Below are positions 54,965 to 58,483 of a stretch of DNA of 64,000 nucleotides, piece by piece (within the stretch, counting starts at the first letter, position 1; every line of letters begins with the position of its first letter). This DNA comes from an uncultured Bdellovibrionales bacterium (GTDB lineage: Bacteria; Bdellovibrionota_C; UBA2361; SZUA-149; CAZDWZ01), in NCBI GenBank assembly GCA_964405665.1, contig CAYOOT010000002.1, positions 24,751 through 88,750 on the forward strand, read 5' to 3'. Below the pieces are notes generated by a model. The model saw only the letters and a list, made by a program, of their open reading frames with translations. It searched no databases and was not told where the DNA came from. Made by a program: the position numbers and the translations under genes.

Positions 54965-56308
54965 CTACATCTGGTCTTTTAAGGCCGCTGCTACTTTTTC
55001 CAAGCTAATGCCATCTTGTTGTTTTCCGTTTGCTAAATTTTTTATACTACAAACTCCCCGAGAAAGTTCTTGGCTCCCGGCAATAACTACAAACTCAATT
55101 CCTTTTTTATTGGCATACTTAATTTGATTTCCCAATTTTCCGACCTCCAAAGAAAGTTCAGTATTTACTCCGGCATTTCTAAGATGATTGGCAATTTTCA
55201 CGCACTGTGATTCAGTACTCGGATCAAGCACAGTTACTAAAACTTGGGCGGTACTACTTTTGGTCGGTAATTTTTCCAGGGCCTCAAAGGCTCCGAGCAG
55301 GCGATCCAATCCCAAGGAAGCTCCTACTCCTGGAAGTTCTTTTTTGGTGTAGAGACTTGCTAAATCATCATACCTGCCACCGGAACAAATCGATCCAATC
55401 TCCGGCAAATCAAGACAAGTAGTTTCCAGAACTGTTCCTGTATAATAATCCAGTCCGCGAGCTATTGATAAATCTATTTTACAATTATTATCCCCTACCC
55501 CAACATCAGAAAGAATCAATAACACGCTTTCTAGTTCCGAAACTCCCTTTAAAGAAAAATCATTTCCTAAGAAATGATTTCTTAATTCAATAATGAGATC
55601 TCTATTATTTAAATTGCTTCTGGATAAGCTTAAAAAGGAAAATACTTGTGAAATTTGCGAGGTAGACAAACCTGCCACTTCAACTAATTCTTCCCTCACA
55701 ACATCTTCTCCTAATTTATCCAACTTATCAATTGCTCGGAGCACAGGAACACTTGCTTCTTGCTTCTGCAAAGAAGCAAGAAAGCCATTTAAAATTTGCC
55801 GATTATTAATCCTAAAACGGTGCGCTACTTGCAAAGCATTAAAGGCATGATGAAAAACATTGATTATTTCTGCATCGGCAAGCACAGATTTTACTCCAAT
55901 GATATCAATATCACATTGAATGAATTCTCTGTACCGTCCACGCTGTGGTTTTTCTGCTCGCCAGACTGGAGCAATATGAAATCTTTTAAATGGAGTTCCC
56001 AATTCGTTGATATGTTGCGCTGCATAGCGAGCAAGAGGCACTGTTAAGTCAAAACGCATTGCCACATCTCTTCCCCCTTGATCGTTGAAACGAAAAAGCT
56101 GCTTGTCAGTTTCTTGAGAACCTTTACCTAAAAGAATTTCCGTATATTCCAAAGCCGGAGTATCAATAGGCACGAAGCCAAAAGAAGAGAATACTTCTTG
56201 TAATGTTGAAATCATAGAATTTCTAAGAATTGCCAGGTTAGGCAAATAATCTCGGAAACCTTTTAAAACTTTTGGTTCAATTATCGATTTAGACACGTTT
56301 TTTTCCAA
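54965..56308 (-). CDS. hisS: Histidine--tRNA ligase
   Basis: KGFRDYLP, MRFDLTVPLARY, RAEKPQRGRYREF.QCD.D, ARGLDYYTG, GGRYD; TTG start. Confidence 0.97.
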   Translation of the reverse strand: MEKNVSKSIIEPKVLKGFRDYLPNLAILRNSMISTLQEVFSSFGFVPIDTPALEYTEILLGKGSQETDKQLFRFNDQGGRDVAMRFDLTVPLARYAAQHINELGTPFKRFHIAPVWRAEKPQRGRYREFIQCDIDIIGVKSVLADAEIINVFHHAFNALQVAHRFRINNRQILNGFLASLQKQEASVPVLRAIDKLDKLGEDVVREELVEVAGLSTSQISQVFSFLSLSRSNLNNRDLIIELRNHFLGNDFSLKGVSELESVLLILSDVGVGDNNCKIDLSIARGLDYYTGTVLETTCLDLPEIGSICSGGRYDDLASLYTKKELPGVGASLGLDRLLGAFEALEKLPTKSSTAQVLVTVLDPSTESQCVKIANHLRNAGVNTELSLEVGKLGNQIKYANKKGIEFVVIAGSQELSRGVCSIKNLANGKQQDGISLEKVAAALKDQM

Positions 56309-56321
56309 TATAATAATGAGT

Positions 56322-56377
56322 AGATCCTCCTTCGCTTCATCCTTTGCTAAAGCTTAGGACGACAAGTCAGAGGATAA
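56322..56377. repeat. CGTC-type repeat half (AGATCCT..TTCG...GCTAAAGCT..GACGAC)
   Basis: Reverse complement reads gtcgtcctaagc...gcgaaggaggatct; related copy at 59136-59202. Confidence 0.6.
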
Positions 56378-56389
56378 AGTTTTTTCTAT

Positions 56390-56421
56390 GAGTTATACAA
56401 CATAGTAATGTTGTATAACTC
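56390..56421. promoter_or_regulatory. Perfect 14-bp palindrome in the divergent hisS/phoH intergenic region
   Basis: gagttatacaacat-agta-atgttgtataactc. Confidence 0.55.
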
Positions 56422-56471
56422 GTGAAAAGACTTAACAATAAATGTTGTTGCTGCATTAAGCAAGGAGATGT

Positions 56472-56543
56472 ATTCTCCCCTTTTTCCCACACTGAATATA
56501 TTCTGAAATTACTTATGGTTTAATGTGGGAAAAAGGGGAGAAT
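56472..56543. repeat. Hairpin element, copy 1 (20-bp arms; right arm contains the SD and start of the PhoH gene)
   Basis: attctcccctttttcccaca (56472-91) / tgtgggaaaaaggggagaat (56524-43). Confidence 0.9.
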
Positions 56544-58035
56544 GGAAAGAAAAATATTTGTTTTGGATACATCAGCCATTATGTCTTTAGTGCAAGATGT
56601 AACCACTTATCGTGGGAAGGAAATGCCAGGATTTGCTGGTGTTTTAGGGGATAATGAAATCGTAATTCCTAGAATTGTTCTCGATGAGCTTGCGGGCTTA
56701 AGAAAAGCAACCGGAGAAAGATCAAAAACCGCTCTGGAAGCCGCAAAACAATTGGAATATTATTCTACTCTAGGTTCTTTATTGGAAGGAGTAGAAACCG
56801 AAAAAGGGGGAATGCTACGCATTGCTCCTCGACCATCACATGAGAAAATTTTTGCGTGGGGATTGATGACCGATGTGGCTGATCACGAAATCCTAGCAAC
56901 AACAATTGAAATTGAAGATTCTTTAAGAATAAAATATAAGAGCGATCCCTTAGAAGAAGATACCGACGAGGAAGAACTTCCTAGAGTTACTCTCATCACA
57001 CAAGATCGCATCCTGAGAGTTCTTGCTCGAAGCGTTTTTAATGTCTCTGCGGAAGAACTAAAATTTGTCTGTGCCCCTGAGTTGGAAAACTCCAGAGGTT
57101 ATCGAAAAATAGAAGTAAGCGGCGAAGAGTTGGATAATATTATCAGTCAAGGGTATTATCAAACGGAACGTTTTTCTTTTGTTAATGAATTTTTTCACAT
57201 CGTCGACAAAGAAAATCCTACTGTTCATTACTGCTATGCAATAATGAGGGACAAAGAATCAGGTAAAGCAGAATTAATCGATAGAACAAAAATTGATTAT
57301 CTAAAAGTAGCCGGTGAAGTTTCCGGCAAAAATGTTCAGCAAAAACTTCTTCTTTGGTCCTTAATGGGCTGTGGCGAATCAGACCCCTTTGCTCCCGATG
57401 GGATAAGATTAATTACTGTATCTGGGCCGGCAGGAAGTGGAAAATCTTTTCTTACTTTAGCCGCCGCTTGGGAGCGATTAGAGCGCGGACATTTTGAACG
57501 GATCATTATTACTCGACCAATGGTCGAAGTCGGAGCTTCGATGGGTTTTTTACCAGGAACTTTGGAAGAAAAAGTAAAACCTTGGGGAGGTCCAATCGAA
57601 GATAACTTAAGAGCGATCGTGCAAGTTCCTTCTCCTGACGAAGGCCGAAGTAATGCCGGAGGAGGAAAAAGAGGAGTCCAACGTTCAACTAGGCCATTTG
57701 ATGCCAAAGCTTGGTTGGAAATGGAAGATAGATTGGAAATAGTGCCTCTTACCTATATTCGCGGTCGTACTTTTAGAAAATCTTTTGTAATTTTAGAAGA
57801 AGGTCAAAATATTGAACGAGGACCGCTGAAGGTTCTTTTAACGCGATTGGGAGAAGGTAGCATTGTTGTGATTGTGGGAGATGAAAGTCAAATTGATAAT
57901 CAATTTCTAAGCAGACGCAATAATGGTCTTGTGCATGCAATTAATGCTTTTCGCAATTGGCCGCAAGCGGTGCATGTTTATTTAAAACAAATTGTTAGAA
58001 GTGATTTGGCGGAAGCGGCTAGTCAATTGTTATAG
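56542..58035 (+). CDS. PIN domain + PhoH-family ATPase (YlaK/PhoH2-like)
   Basis: FVLDTS, VLDEL, ADHEIL, LITQD..LR (PIN); GPAGSGKS, MGFLPG..EEK, RGRT, LEEGQN, GDESQID (PhoH). Confidence 0.92.
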   Translation: MERKIFVLDTSAIMSLVQDVTTYRGKEMPGFAGVLGDNEIVIPRIVLDELAGLRKATGERSKTALEAAKQLEYYSTLGSLLEGVETEKGGMLRIAPRPSHEKIFAWGLMTDVADHEILATTIEIEDSLRIKYKSDPLEEDTDEEELPRVTLITQDRILRVLARSVFNVSAEELKFVCAPELENSRGYRKIEVSGEELDNIISQGYYQTERFSFVNEFFHIVDKENPTVHYCYAIMRDKESGKAELIDRTKIDYLKVAGEVSGKNVQQKLLLWSLMGCGESDPFAPDGIRLITVSGPAGSGKSFLTLAAAWERLERGHFERIIITRPMVEVGASMGFLPGTLEEKVKPWGGPIEDNLRAIVQVPSPDEGRSNAGGGKRGVQRSTRPFDAKAWLEMEDRLEIVPLTYIRGRTFRKSFVILEEGQNIERGPLKVLLTRLGEGSIVVIVGDESQIDNQFLSRRNNGLVHAINAFRNWPQAVHVYLKQIVRSDLAEAASQLL

Positions 58036-58065
58036 TTTTTGATAATTTGCTGCGGTTTTATTCTC

Positions 58066-58135
58066 CTCTCCCCTTTTTCCCACGCTGCATATATTCTGGT
58101 ACTATTTATAGTTTGATGTGGGAAAAAGGGGAGAG
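58066..58135. repeat. Hairpin element, copy 2 (18-bp arms)
   Basis: ctctcccctttttcccac (58066-83) / gtgggaaaaaggggagag (58118-35); 60/68 identical to copy 1. Confidence 0.9.
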
Positions 58136-58213: not shown

Positions 58214-58483
58214 ATGAGCGAAAGTAACAATACAGACCCCTGTGCAAGTTGGGGAATTGATCAAAAATTGGCTGTTGTTTGGTTTGTTATTATAATTGCA
58301 ATCGGTGTTGGTCTAACAACCGCTCTGAAAAATACAGATTCCTATAACTATAATCACAACGGTGAGTTTTTTGATTATAAGGCTTACAAAGAAAATCGAC
58401 TGTCCCAAAGTTCAATCCCCAGTGATGACATTGATAAGCGCGCTCAAGGCGATATTGTTAGTACACAAAATAATTTAAAGTAA
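58214..58483 (+). CDS. Small single-pass membrane protein
   Basis: 89 aa, one TM segment (LAVVWFVIIIAIGVGLTTAL). Confidence 0.6.
   Translation: MSESNNTDPCASWGIDQKLAVVWFVIIIAIGVGLTTALKNTDSYNYNHNGEFFDYKAYKENRLSQSSIPSDDIDKRAQGDIVSTQNNLK

What the first reader, a model, noticed from the sequence alone, without database searches (positions are those of the whole stretch)
56472..58135. PIN-PhoH gene bracketed by two direct copies of a 68-bp hairpin, one hiding its RBS
Seen: both copies have TCTCCCCTTTTTCCCAC / GTGGGAAAAAGGGGAGA arms (0 mismatches between copies) around a 34-nt loop of identical length (8 differences). Copy 1's right arm contains the GGGGAG SD and overlaps the start codon; copy 2 starts about 30 nt after the stop. 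No attC GTTRRRY/RYYYAAC ends and no target-site duplication are evident. Inference: a one-gene cassette bounded by an unrecognised recombination site or MITE pair, and/or structure-gated translation of a potentially toxic RNase-helicase (PIN-PhoH2 proteins act as toxins in mycobacteria).
Basis: partly seen in the sequence, partly recalled or inferred. Interest (0 to 1): 0.62.

Follow-up and report, generated by a model that had tools for sequence, protein, structure and literature searches.

The report
Dispersed hairpin repeat flanking PIN-PhoH
The two hairpins around the PIN-PhoH gene are two independently inserted copies of a 70-base palindromic repeat present at least 46 times in this uncultured Bdellovibrionota genome, so the gene is not a mobile cassette, although the repeat family has an unexplained habit of sitting exactly against gene ends.

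Summary

- **A dispersed repeat.** The 68-nt hairpin (functionally 70 nt, T..A) has at least 46 copies in this 2.8-Mb genome, next to unrelated housekeeping genes and tRNAs.
- **Family spread.** Versions with the same termini and size but unrelated interiors are expanded in two other families of the class.
- **Stem.** It is maintained by compensatory changes.
- **Two separate insertions.** A 93%-identical relative with the same gene order carries the downstream copy but has an empty upstream site. More distant orthologues lack both.
- **Not unusual.** PIN-PhoH is a conserved core gene, and at least three other protein genes are bracketed the same way.
- **Not an SD.** GGGGAGA lies 1 nt from the ATG, whereas genomic SDs lie 5-8 nt away. 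A real AAGGAG sits just 5' of the hairpin.
- **Family oddity.** Copies lie flush against stop codons, tRNA 3' ends and start codons, without target duplication. Neither a DNA word nor general compaction explains this.
- **Not found.** No partner transposase was identified, and RNA data could not be obtained.

The closest known kinds are REP/TIRYT-type and MITE-like repeats.

The parts
56473..56542 (.). Hairpin repeat copy 1: 70-nt unit with a 68-nt core at 56474-56541 and pairing that extends to 56472/56543. Its last base is the A of the PIN-PhoH ATG. It is lineage-specific: present in the 98% strain L058 and absent from the 93% relative L057.
58066..58135 (.). Hairpin repeat copy 2: 70-nt unit with a terminal C:G pair and a core at 58067-58134. 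It lies 31 nt after the PIN-PhoH stop codon and 79 nt before the next ORF. It is orthologous to the copy in L057 (2196-2263) and is also present in a sibling strain (L056), so it is the older insertion.
56542..58035 (+). PIN_4 + PhoH (PhoH2-type) gene of 497 aa. It is a conserved, vertically inherited gene of this clade and is not part of the repeat.
56462..56467 (+). AAGGAG, the probable native Shine-Dalgarno sequence of PIN-PhoH, lying 6 nt 5' of the hairpin core. Removing the 68-nt core would put it 6 nt from the ATG, the genomic optimum. L057 has AAAGAGG followed by 9 nt and a TTG start at the empty site.
56309..56440 (.). A second, unrelated dispersed repeat family fills most of the hisS / PIN-PhoH spacer. 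It includes a perfect 14-nt inverted repeat at about 56391-56425 and has at least 20 partial copies in the genome.
   Evidence: (I8)
54965..56308 (-). hisS, the divergent upstream neighbour. The same neighbour is found in L057 and L058.
58214..58483 (+). 89-aa ORF with no Pfam match, the downstream neighbour. It is conserved in L056 and L057.

Best explanation
The two hairpins are two members of a dispersed, non-coding, 70-nt palindromic repeat family. The family behaves like REP-type or MITE-like selfish or semi-domesticated DNA, is private to a few lineages of one Bdellovibrionota class, and has colonised at least 46 intergenic sites of this genome.

Shown:
- The copies at PIN-PhoH arrived independently. 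The downstream one predates the split from a 93%-identical relative. The upstream one is found only in the window's lineage.
- PIN-PhoH is an ordinary conserved chromosomal gene that happens to lie between two occupied spacers, as at least three other protein genes do.
- The family keeps a perfect 17-19-bp stem through compensatory changes.
- It keeps invariant termini (T)TCTCCCCTTTT...AAAAGGGGAGA(A), while the interior differs between genomes.
- It makes no target-site duplication.
- It sits exactly against gene ends.

Inferred:
- Copies are spread through a single-stranded hairpin intermediate by a trans-acting enzyme that recognises the termini. A Y1/HUH (RAYT/TIRYT-like) enzyme is the best guess, but none was linked to the element.
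- At PIN-PhoH the upstream copy is wedged between the gene's own SD (AAGGAG) and the start codon, and supplies the A of the ATG.
- When transcribed, the -35 kcal/mol stem would loop out and bring the SD back to about 6 nt from the AUG. The insertion is therefore probably tolerated or mildly repressive, and is not a dedicated switch.
- The downstream copy probably acts, at most, as a 3' stabiliser or terminator-like hairpin.
For: Copy number and context:
- nhmmer finds 46 loci, all 68 nt long with arms at a constant offset.
- The neighbouring genes are unrelated housekeeping genes and tRNAs.

Structure:
- 96.7% of cells are paired, 9 pairs carry double compensatory changes (54 cells), 0 of 500 shuffles reach this, and the slid controls collapse. 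The +-1 position covaries as T:A or C:G.
- 35 of 45 copies have perfectly complementary arms even where their loops have diverged.

Family breadth:
- The same termini and size with unrelated interiors are expanded in G034 (18 copies) and G122 (28), in other families of the class. They are absent from 116 of 124 genomes.

Independence of the two copies:
- L057 (93% identity, same synteny) has an empty upstream site and an orthologous downstream copy.
- L058 (98%) has copy 1, and L056 has copy 2.
- Distant orthologues lack both copies.

Clustering and duplication:
- Copies cluster, and at least three other protein genes are bracketed the same way.
- There is no target-site duplication beyond the shuffled expectation.

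SD argument:
- GGAG peaks 5-8 nt before starts and a spacing of 1 nt is at background.
- AAGGAG lies 6 nt 5' of the core.

Other:
- The terminus GGGGAGA(A/G) fits 7-8 of the 8 positions of the GGGGWSAS motif of TIRYT-associated TIRs (PMC3733652).
- REPs lying close to ORF 3' ends are published.
Against: - No transposase could be tied to the element. Y1 genes occur equally in genomes without the hairpin.
- None of the Y1 genes examined in the six element-bearing genomes (G000, G034, G122, G121, G036, G007) is flanked by the termini.
- The genome's RAYT-like gene has its own, different REP.
- Copy 1 is more diverged from the family consensus (11 differences, median 6) than the phylogenetically older copy 2 (5 differences). 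That fits a young insertion poorly. Loss in L057, or a divergent source copy, cannot be excluded.
- Only one other start-abutting copy (C58) has an SD-like sequence beyond the hairpin (reading of the flanks). The looped-out split-RBS idea therefore cannot explain how genes such as obg are translated.
- Gene calls used for the statistics are crude longest-ORF calls.
Confidence: 0.8

Rival explanations
1. One-gene cassette. The two hairpins are recombination sites, attC-like or otherwise novel, that mobilise PIN-PhoH as a unit.
For: The two copies are direct repeats that bracket exactly one ORF. Copy 1's nearest relative in the genome is copy 2, at 8 differences.
Against: The gene is conserved and syntenic without the upstream hairpin in L057, and without either hairpin in 17 more distant loci. 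The hairpin occurs at 46 sites next to unrelated genes. The stems are perfect, with no extrahelical bases and no GTTRRRY cores. The nearest-neighbour margin is trivial (8 against 9, 9, 10), and copy 2 is only 2 differences from copies on other contigs.
Confidence: 0.03
2. Dedicated translational gate. The upstream hairpin sequesters the start region of a potentially toxic PIN-PhoH RNase/helicase and opens only under certain conditions, as a thermometer or a helicase- or RNase-dependent switch.
For: The AU of the AUG and the 19 nt upstream of it are inside a stem of about -35 kcal/mol. Start-abutting copies keep hairpins at full strength.
Against: The same element abuts the starts of at least 8 unrelated genes, including the conserved start of obg. 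The hairpin is absent from PIN-PhoH orthologues in all other lineages, so this gene does not need it. GGGGAG is not at SD distance, and the likely SD lies outside the stem. No antitoxin partner is present, and the gene is near-universal in the clade.
Confidence: 0.1
3. Domesticated RNA punctuation or terminator element. The hairpin works at the RNA level as a bidirectional terminator, stabiliser or processing site. Its exact abutment to stop codons, tRNA 3' ends and AUGs reflects cleavage at the stem base, for example generating short-leader or leaderless mRNAs, or a promoter within the loop.
For: - Exact abutment: 22 sides lie 1 nt after a stop codon (none at 0, 2 or 3 nt), 8 lie at an ATG, and 6 lie at a tRNA discriminator base. 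This is replicated in G034 and G122.
- In 5 of 10 convergent pairs, and in one divergent pair, the element is the whole spacer.
- Stem and termini are conserved while the interior is free to vary.
- Symmetric-loop variants, which carry TAGAAT-like boxes on both strands, are enriched at gene starts (6 of 8 against 4 of 36, p = 7e-4).
- obg, whose conserved start codon abuts the element, has only the hairpin between it and an upstream ORF that ends 30 nt beyond the hairpin.
Against: - Only 46 of about 2300 junctions carry the element, and it is absent from most of the class, so it cannot be a general expression mechanism.
- There is no U-tract after the stem and no -35 box.
- There is no Rfam match.
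- The near-identity of copies within a genome indicates recent spread rather than ancient function.
- No RNA data were available.
Confidence: 0.2
4. Classical DDE-type MITE, derived for example from IS630 or IS5, that duplicates an AT or TTAA target.
For: The element has perfect 17-19-bp terminal inverted repeats, small size and an AT-rich core. 72% of flanks read AT. At the C1 junction, the empty site in an 80% relative has one TTAA while the filled site has TTAA-[70 nt]-TTAA.
Against: Direct-repeat matches between left and right flanks equal the shuffled expectation at every offset and length tested. tRNA-Ser junctions read G-T|...|A-C or A-T, which is incompatible with an AT duplication. 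AT and TTAA are both self-complementary, so the apparent duplications are equally well explained as stem extensions. No IS with these inverted repeats was found.
Confidence: 0.1

Closest known systems
REP / REPIN / BIME repeats mobilised by RAYT (TnpA-REP) Y1 transposases
   Same: High-copy extragenic palindromes whose hairpin is kept by compensatory changes. There is no target-site duplication. They lie mostly between convergent or co-directional genes, close to ORF 3' ends, and published REPs sometimes touch or supply stop codons (PMC3733652). Their distribution across genomes is patchy.
   Different: The unit is one 70-nt hairpin with a 34-nt loop, not a 20-40-nt REP or a REP doublet. It has no GTAG or CGTC head. 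No RAYT gene is flanked by it, and the genome's RAYT-like gene has a different, GC-rich REP. Abutment is exact to the base, and it also occurs at tRNA 3' ends and at start codons.
TIR repeats associated with TIRYT (RAYT-like) transposases, or 'TIRtrons' (Di Nocera et al. 2013, PMC3733652)
   Same: These are moderately abundant inverted-repeat families, often in dimers or clusters. The published TIRs share GGGGWSAS, and the terminus here is GGGGAGA(A/G), fitting 7-8 of the 8 positions.
   Different: No TIRYT or Y1 gene bracketed by these termini was found in any of the six element-bearing genomes examined. The motif match is short and could be chance.
Bacterial MITEs transcribed with neighbouring genes, such as Correia/CREE (NEMIS) of Neisseria, and ERIC/IRU
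   Same: Short non-autonomous palindromic insertions found next to unrelated genes, co-transcribed with them, and able to form long RNA hairpins. According to my own knowledge of the Neisseria literature, Correia elements can carry promoters and RNase III sites, and such elements can reshape 5' and 3' UTRs.
   Different: Correia elements duplicate a TA target, are 100-155 bp long and carry an IHF site. Here there is no duplication, the size is fixed at 68-70 nt, and the element is placed flush against gene ends.
Integron attC sites and gene cassettes
   Same: Imperfect-palindrome sites placed directly after the ORFs they accompany, recombined as folded single strands, in compact gene-plus-site units.
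   Different: There are no GTTRRRY/RYYYAAC cores and no extrahelical bases, and the stem is perfect. The neighbouring genes are core housekeeping genes and tRNAs. The gene persists without the site in relatives.
Split ribosome-binding sites bridged by a hairpin (phage T4 genes 38 and 25; recalled from the literature, not checked here)
   Same: The SD and the start codon are separated by a stem-loop whose folding restores a functional SD-AUG distance. Here AAGGAG lies 6 nt from the 5' foot of the stem and the AUG lies at its 3' foot.
   Different: The T4 hairpins are small, whereas this one is a 70-nt, -35 kcal/mol stem-loop. Only this copy, and perhaps one other, has an SD beyond the hairpin. 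The function is untested.

Membership tests
REP / REPIN (RAYT-associated) | A 20-40-nt imperfect palindrome carrying a conserved GTAG or CGTC tetranucleotide head | tested here: not met
   The unit is 68-70 nt with termini (T)TCTCCCCTTTT, and no GTAG or CGTC head.
REP / REPIN (RAYT-associated) | A RAYT gene flanked by inverted copies of the same repeat (REPtron) | tested here: not met
   Five Y1 hits in G000, and the Y1 loci fetched from G034, G122, G121, G036 and G007, carry no hairpin termini within about 1.5 kb. The RAYT-like gene on C32 has its own GC-rich REP.
REP / REPIN (RAYT-associated) | Many extragenic copies, a hairpin preserved by compensatory change, and no target-site duplication | tested here: met
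   46 loci. Nine pairs carry double changes, with 0 of 500 shuffles reaching this. No duplication beyond the shuffled expectation.
TIRYT-associated TIR repeats | TIRs containing the GGGGWSAS motif that flank a TIRYT gene | tested here: inconclusive
   The terminus GGGGAGA(A/G) fits 7-8 of the 8 positions. No Y1 gene flanked by it was found.
MITE derived from a DDE insertion sequence | Terminal inverted repeats plus a target-site duplication of fixed length | tested here: not met
   Inverted repeats are present, but direct-repeat matches between flanks equal the shuffled expectation at offsets 0-2 and lengths 2-5.
MITE derived from a DDE insertion sequence | A parent IS with the same inverted repeats in the same or a related genome | tested here: not met
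   The genome-wide arm search lists no arm pairs in G000 other than the 51-nt-offset hairpins. There are no matches in viral contigs. DDE transposase families were not searched.
Integron attC / gene cassette | R''/R' core sites (RYYYAAC / GTTRRRY), extrahelical bases, and a cassette that moves with its site | tested here: not met
   No core sites are present. Arms are perfectly paired in 35 of 45 copies. The gene is retained without the upstream site in L057.
PhoH2 (PIN-PhoH) toxin-antitoxin-like module | A PIN domain fused to a PhoH ATPase | tested here: met
   PF13638 PIN_4 (1.9e-10) and PF02562 PhoH (3.8e-49).
PhoH2 (PIN-PhoH) toxin-antitoxin-like module | An adjacent small antitoxin gene (phoAT-like) upstream in the same operon | tested here: not met
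   The upstream neighbour is the divergent hisS, and no ORF of 60 aa or more is listed within the hisS / PIN-PhoH spacer (56309-56541). Downstream neighbours differ among orthologues.
Known structured RNA families (Rfam 15) | A match at the family's gathering score | tested here: not met
   Only sub-threshold miRNA-precursor look-alikes were found, at 23-29 bits against cut-offs of 74-171 bits.
Intrinsic terminator | A GC-rich stem with a 3-8-nt loop followed by a U-tract | tested here: not met
   The loop is 34 nt. The flanks read AT(G/T)AA rather than a T-run.

The most novel reading that the evidence does not exclude
The family is placed, or retained, by a mechanism that reads the functional end of a gene rather than a DNA word. 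Across three genomes with unrelated element interiors, the 70-nt hairpin begins on the first base after a stop codon or after the last encoded base of a tRNA (the discriminator, or CCA where it is encoded), or ends on the first base of a start codon. It does so without target duplication. This could reflect insertion coupled to RNA 3' ends or hairpin feet, or an RNA-level punctuation role in which cleavage at the stem bases defines mRNA and tRNA ends and yields short-leader messages.
Probability: 0.15. Interest if true: 0.8.

Novelty: new variant of a known kind. Interest (0 to 1): 0.42.

Why it matters
For the finding as posed, the result deflates the claim. There is no new gene cassette system and no dedicated riboregulator of a toxin.

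What remains of interest is the repeat family itself. It is an orphan, deeply conserved-terminus hairpin repeat of uncultured predatory-type bacteria. It lands base-exact against stop codons, tRNA ends and start codons, and it can make up the entire spacer between two genes.

If the rule behind that placement were understood, it would bear on two things. The first is how REP-like DNA chooses or survives at its sites, which is a long-standing loose end. The second is how genes whose only upstream sequence is a -35 kcal/mol stem, among them obg (normally an essential gene), are transcribed and translated.

There is also a practical point for annotation. Assemblies break at these repeats (L056 starts inside copy 2, and G000 contig C94 starts inside a copy), and start codons next to them are easily miscalled.

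Tried and rejected
- **Cassette or recombination site.** Rejected by the orthologue comparison.
- **Hairpin arm as a canonical SD.** Rejected by genome-wide SD spacing.
- **Target-site duplication of AT, TTAA or other words.** No excess over shuffled flank pairings. The TTAA 'duplication' at the C1 junction is uninformative because TTAA is palindromic.
- **A simple target word that mimics gene ends.** Only 5% of T(A/G)(A/G)T words in noncoding DNA are real stop codons, against 20 of 24 next to elements (p about 1e-22). For ATG the figures are 17% against 8 of 21.
- **Genome-wide compaction or deletion to the limit.** Ordinary hairpins in 77 convergent spacers have a median offset of 5.5 nt, only 1 is flush on both sides, and this is no better than shuffled controls.
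- **Weaker hairpins at start codons.** Not seen.
- **Partner Y1/RAYT/TIRYT gene.** None is flanked by the termini in the six genomes examined.
- **Promoter or terminator consensus in the hairpin.** None was found by the scan.
- **Rfam.** Nothing reached a gathering score.
- **Phage carriage.** There are 0 matches in viral contigs.
- **16S rRNA for the anti-SD.** It is not in the MAG.
- **Exact-protein look-up of PIN-PhoH.** It is not on record.
Full report
**Observation.**
The sequence is as described. Two direct 68-nt copies lie at 56474-56541 and 58067-58134. Their 17-nt arms are identical and their 34-nt loops differ at 8 positions. The arm occurs four times in the window, against 0.29 expected. 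Copy 1 ends one base before the ATG (56542) of a 497-aa ORF with PIN_4 and PhoH domains. Pairing extends to 56472/56543, so the AT of the start codon lies in the stem. Copy 2 begins 31 nt after the stop codon. As RNA, copy 1 in its context folds at -48 kcal/mol (z = -6), and the consensus 68-mer folds at -32.8 kcal/mol. Rfam offers only sub-threshold miRNA look-alikes.

**The hairpin is a dispersed repeat.**
The window is C2:24751-88750 of a 2.82-Mb, 132-contig, 36% GC assembly. Iterated nhmmer finds 46 loci, nearly all exactly 68 nt long. A contig from another sample starts inside copy 2, and contig C94 starts inside a copy. Assemblies therefore break at the repeat, and 46 is an undercount.

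In an alignment of 42 full copies, the outer 12 bp are almost invariant. The inner 5 bp change in a compensatory way (CCCAC/GTGGG, CGCGC/GCGCG, CACAC/GTGTG and others). Overall, 96.7% of cells are paired, 9 pairs carry double changes (54 cells), 0 of 500 shuffles reach this, and the slid controls collapse. The base on each side of the core also covaries (T:A 39 times, C:G twice), so the unit is 70 nt and the A of an abutting ATG is its last base. Thirty-five of 45 copies have perfectly complementary arms even where the loop has diverged heavily.

**Host and family breadth.**
PIN-PhoH orthologues carry titles of uncultured Bdellovibrionota/Oligoflexia MAGs. In 124 genomes of the class, hairpins with the same termini and the same 68-70-nt size are expanded in only three genomes, each from a different family: G000 with 41 strict matches, G034 with 18 and G122 with 28. 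Each has its own interior. There are isolated copies in five further genomes and none in the Bdellovibrio-rich genus. None occurs in viral contigs. Patchy expansions with conserved termini are the signature of a mobile family whose ends are the recognised part.

**PIN-PhoH is not a cassette.**
The protein has more than 130 homologues at 63-93% identity. Fifteen orthologous loci at 68-79% identity have no hairpin, and neither do two at 81-82%.

The decisive case is L057, at 93% identity and with the same order hisS / PIN-PhoH / small ORF:
- Its upstream site is empty. It reads AAAGAGG, then 9 nt, then a TTG GAA AGA AAA start.
- Its downstream hairpin lies at the orthologous place. The flanks align, the terminal pair is the same C:G, the loop shares the CTGG variant, and the interior differs at about 10 positions.

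A 98% strain (L058) has copy 1 unchanged. Copy 2 therefore predates the split from L057. Copy 1 was gained later, or less parsimoniously was lost in L057. Either way, the two are separate events.

Bracketing is not special either. Copies cluster, with 10 adjacent pairs within 2.5 kb against 1.7 expected at random (maximum 7 in 2000 simulations). Three other protein genes, and several tRNAs, are bracketed in the same way. Copy 1's nearest relative is copy 2, but only by 8 differences against 9, 9 and 10. Copy 2 is just 2 differences from copies on contigs C4 and C27.

**The 'hidden RBS'.**
GGAG in this genome peaks 5-8 nt before start codons. The 1-nt spacing of GGGGAGA-ATG is at background, 6 of 2239 genes. 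A proper AAGGAG lies at 56462-56467, 6 nt 5' of the hairpin core. Removing the 68-nt core would restore the optimal spacing, and L057's empty site has an SD in the equivalent place.

My inference is that the element was wedged between the SD and the start codon. Once folded, it brings them back together, as in the split ribosome-binding sites of phage T4 genes 38 and 25 (recalled from the literature, not checked here). This is untested and cannot be general. Of the other start-abutting copies, only C58 has an SD-like sequence beyond the hairpin (flanks). One of the other abutted starts is the conserved start of obg, whose upstream ORF ends 30 nt beyond the hairpin. Start-abutting copies are not weaker hairpins (median -34.2 against -33.4 kcal/mol). 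How these genes are expressed is therefore open. Possibilities are a promoter in the AT-rich loop, or cleavage of the stem.

Symmetric-loop variants, which carry TAGAAT-like boxes on both strands, are enriched at gene starts (6 of 8 against 4 of 36, Fisher p = 7e-4). However, no -35 box or consensus promoter is detected.

**The family's odd placement.**
Of about 90 element sides:
- 22 lie exactly 1 nt after the stop codon of an ORF of at least 80 codons, which is 0 nt for the 70-nt unit. None lie at 0, 2 or 3 nt.
- 8 have the ATG of a long ORF at offset 0, and 3 more lie at 1-4 nt.
- 6 abut the discriminator base of tRNAs. That is 6 of the genome's 35 tRNA genes, and none of the six encodes CCA.

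In 5 of 10 convergent pairs the element is the whole spacer (69-70 nt, against a genome median of 65 nt, with only 4% of pairs at 0-2 nt). In one divergent pair it is the whole 68-nt spacer (median 162 nt).

The pattern recurs in G034, with 5 sides 1 nt after stops and with tRNA-Met (after its encoded CCA), tRNA-Trp and tRNA-Tyr. It also recurs in G122, with four tRNA-Ser genes and with TAA and TGA stops. The same Ser-gct / Arg-acg / Ser-tga tRNA cluster is decorated in G000 and in G122, each with its own genome's version of the element.

Empty sites show that the double-flush copies sit where there was almost no spacer:
- At the C1 junction, an 80% relative has overlapping stop codons (TTAA).
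- At the C65 junction, a 63% relative has a 14-nt spacer, and an 81% relative has 170 nt of other repeats.

**Explanations tested for the flush placement.**
- *Target duplication:* none beyond shuffled flank pairings.
- *A target word:* flanks do show a consensus, reading A-T-(G/T)-A-A outward. But only 5% of T(A/G)(A/G)T words in noncoding DNA are real stops, against 20 of 24 next to elements (p about 1e-22). For ATG the figures are 17% against 8 of 21 (p = 0.016).
- *General compaction:* ordinary hairpins in 77 convergent spacers have a median offset of 5.5 nt, only 1 is flush on both sides, and this is no better than shuffled controls.

The behaviour is therefore specific to the element and remains unexplained. 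Published REPs are also mostly within 20 bp of ORF 3' ends and sometimes supply the TAG stop (PMC3733652). This family looks like an extreme case of a known tendency.

**Search for the enzyme.**
Y1_Tnp (PF01797) matches occur in all genomes tested, including those without the hairpin. None of the Y1 genes examined in G000, G034, G122, G121, G036 or G007 is flanked by the termini. The 180-aa RAYT-like gene on contig C32 is flanked by its own GC-rich REP, which has about 130 half-site hits. The terminus GGGGAGA(A/G) fits the GGGGWSAS motif reported for TIRs around TIRYT transposase genes. That is a lead, not a link.

**Comparison with known kinds.**
The element works like a REP-type or MITE-like repeat. 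It fails the defining tests of each class:
- It has no GTAG or CGTC head and no REPtron, so it is not a classical REP.
- It has no target-site duplication and no parent IS, so it is not a classical MITE.
- It has no core sites, so it is not attC.

I therefore call it a new variant of a known kind. An earlier agent in this scan reached the same description from another copy (e1-1412108). I re-derived the stop and tRNA result independently. I added the start-codon abutment, the empty and filled orthologous sites, the SD spacing, the word-model and compaction controls, and the third genome.

**Limits.**
- Gene calls are crude longest-ORF calls of at least 90 codons.
- The genome is a 93%-complete MAG.
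- Relatives used for empty sites are 63-93% identical, so the exact ancestral junctions are uncertain.

**Verdict.**
The cassette reading is refuted. The MITE-like reading is supported in a broad sense. The translational gate is unproven and is not specific to PIN-PhoH.

Noticed in passing
window 56309-56440: Most of the hisS / PIN-PhoH spacer is a second, unrelated dispersed repeat with at least 20 partial copies in the genome. It has two modules and includes a perfect 14-nt inverted repeat, GAGTTATACAACAT/ATGTTGTATAACTC. The same AATGTTGTATAACT motif lies in the MBL / pgpA spacer of an 81% relative (L061).
   Followed up: partly
G000 contig C32:24164-24706 (outside the window): A 180-aa RAYT-like Y1 transposase gene is flanked by inverted GC-rich REPs (GCGGACGTCCTCATCCGCAACCTG), which have about 130 half-site hits genome-wide. 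It is a classical REPtron and is unrelated to the hairpin family.
   Followed up: partly
G000 contigs C65, C72, C29, C95, C17, C60 (outside the window): A sub-family with a nearly symmetric loop is strongly enriched at gene starts (6 of 8 against 4 of 36, p = 7e-4). Copy 1 at PIN-PhoH also has an atypical loop. The cause could be promoter selection or age, and is unknown.
   Followed up: partly
G000 C60:7851-11645 and G122 locus L073: The tRNA cluster Ser-gct / Arg-acg / Ser-tga is decorated with flush hairpins in two genomes from different families, each using its own genome's version of the element. This indicates either a recurrent hot spot or concerted evolution.
   Followed up: partly
window 56467-56473 with 56569-56575: GAUGUAU just 5' of hairpin copy 1 can pair with AUACAUC in codons 10-12 of PIN-PhoH. 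In the minimum-free-energy fold, this encloses the hairpin and the start codon in a longer helix. It may be chance.
   Followed up: no
G000 C16:6644-6714 (outside the window): A 55-nt variant hairpin with the same termini (TCTCCCCTTTTCC...GGAAAAGGGGAGA) is followed directly by an orphan right arm. This could be a nested or abortive insertion.
   Followed up: no
L058:2900-3200: The contig of the 98% strain switches to GC-rich unrelated sequence inside PIN-PhoH, after residue 411. It is probably a chimeric metagenome assembly, not a biological feature.
   Followed up: no
window copy 2 against G000 C27:4471, C4:14923 and L057:2196-2263: Copy 2 differs by only 2 nt from copies on other contigs, but by about 10 nt from its own orthologue in the 93% relative. 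This suggests either that copy 2 is a recent source copy or that gene conversion occurs among copies.
   Followed up: no
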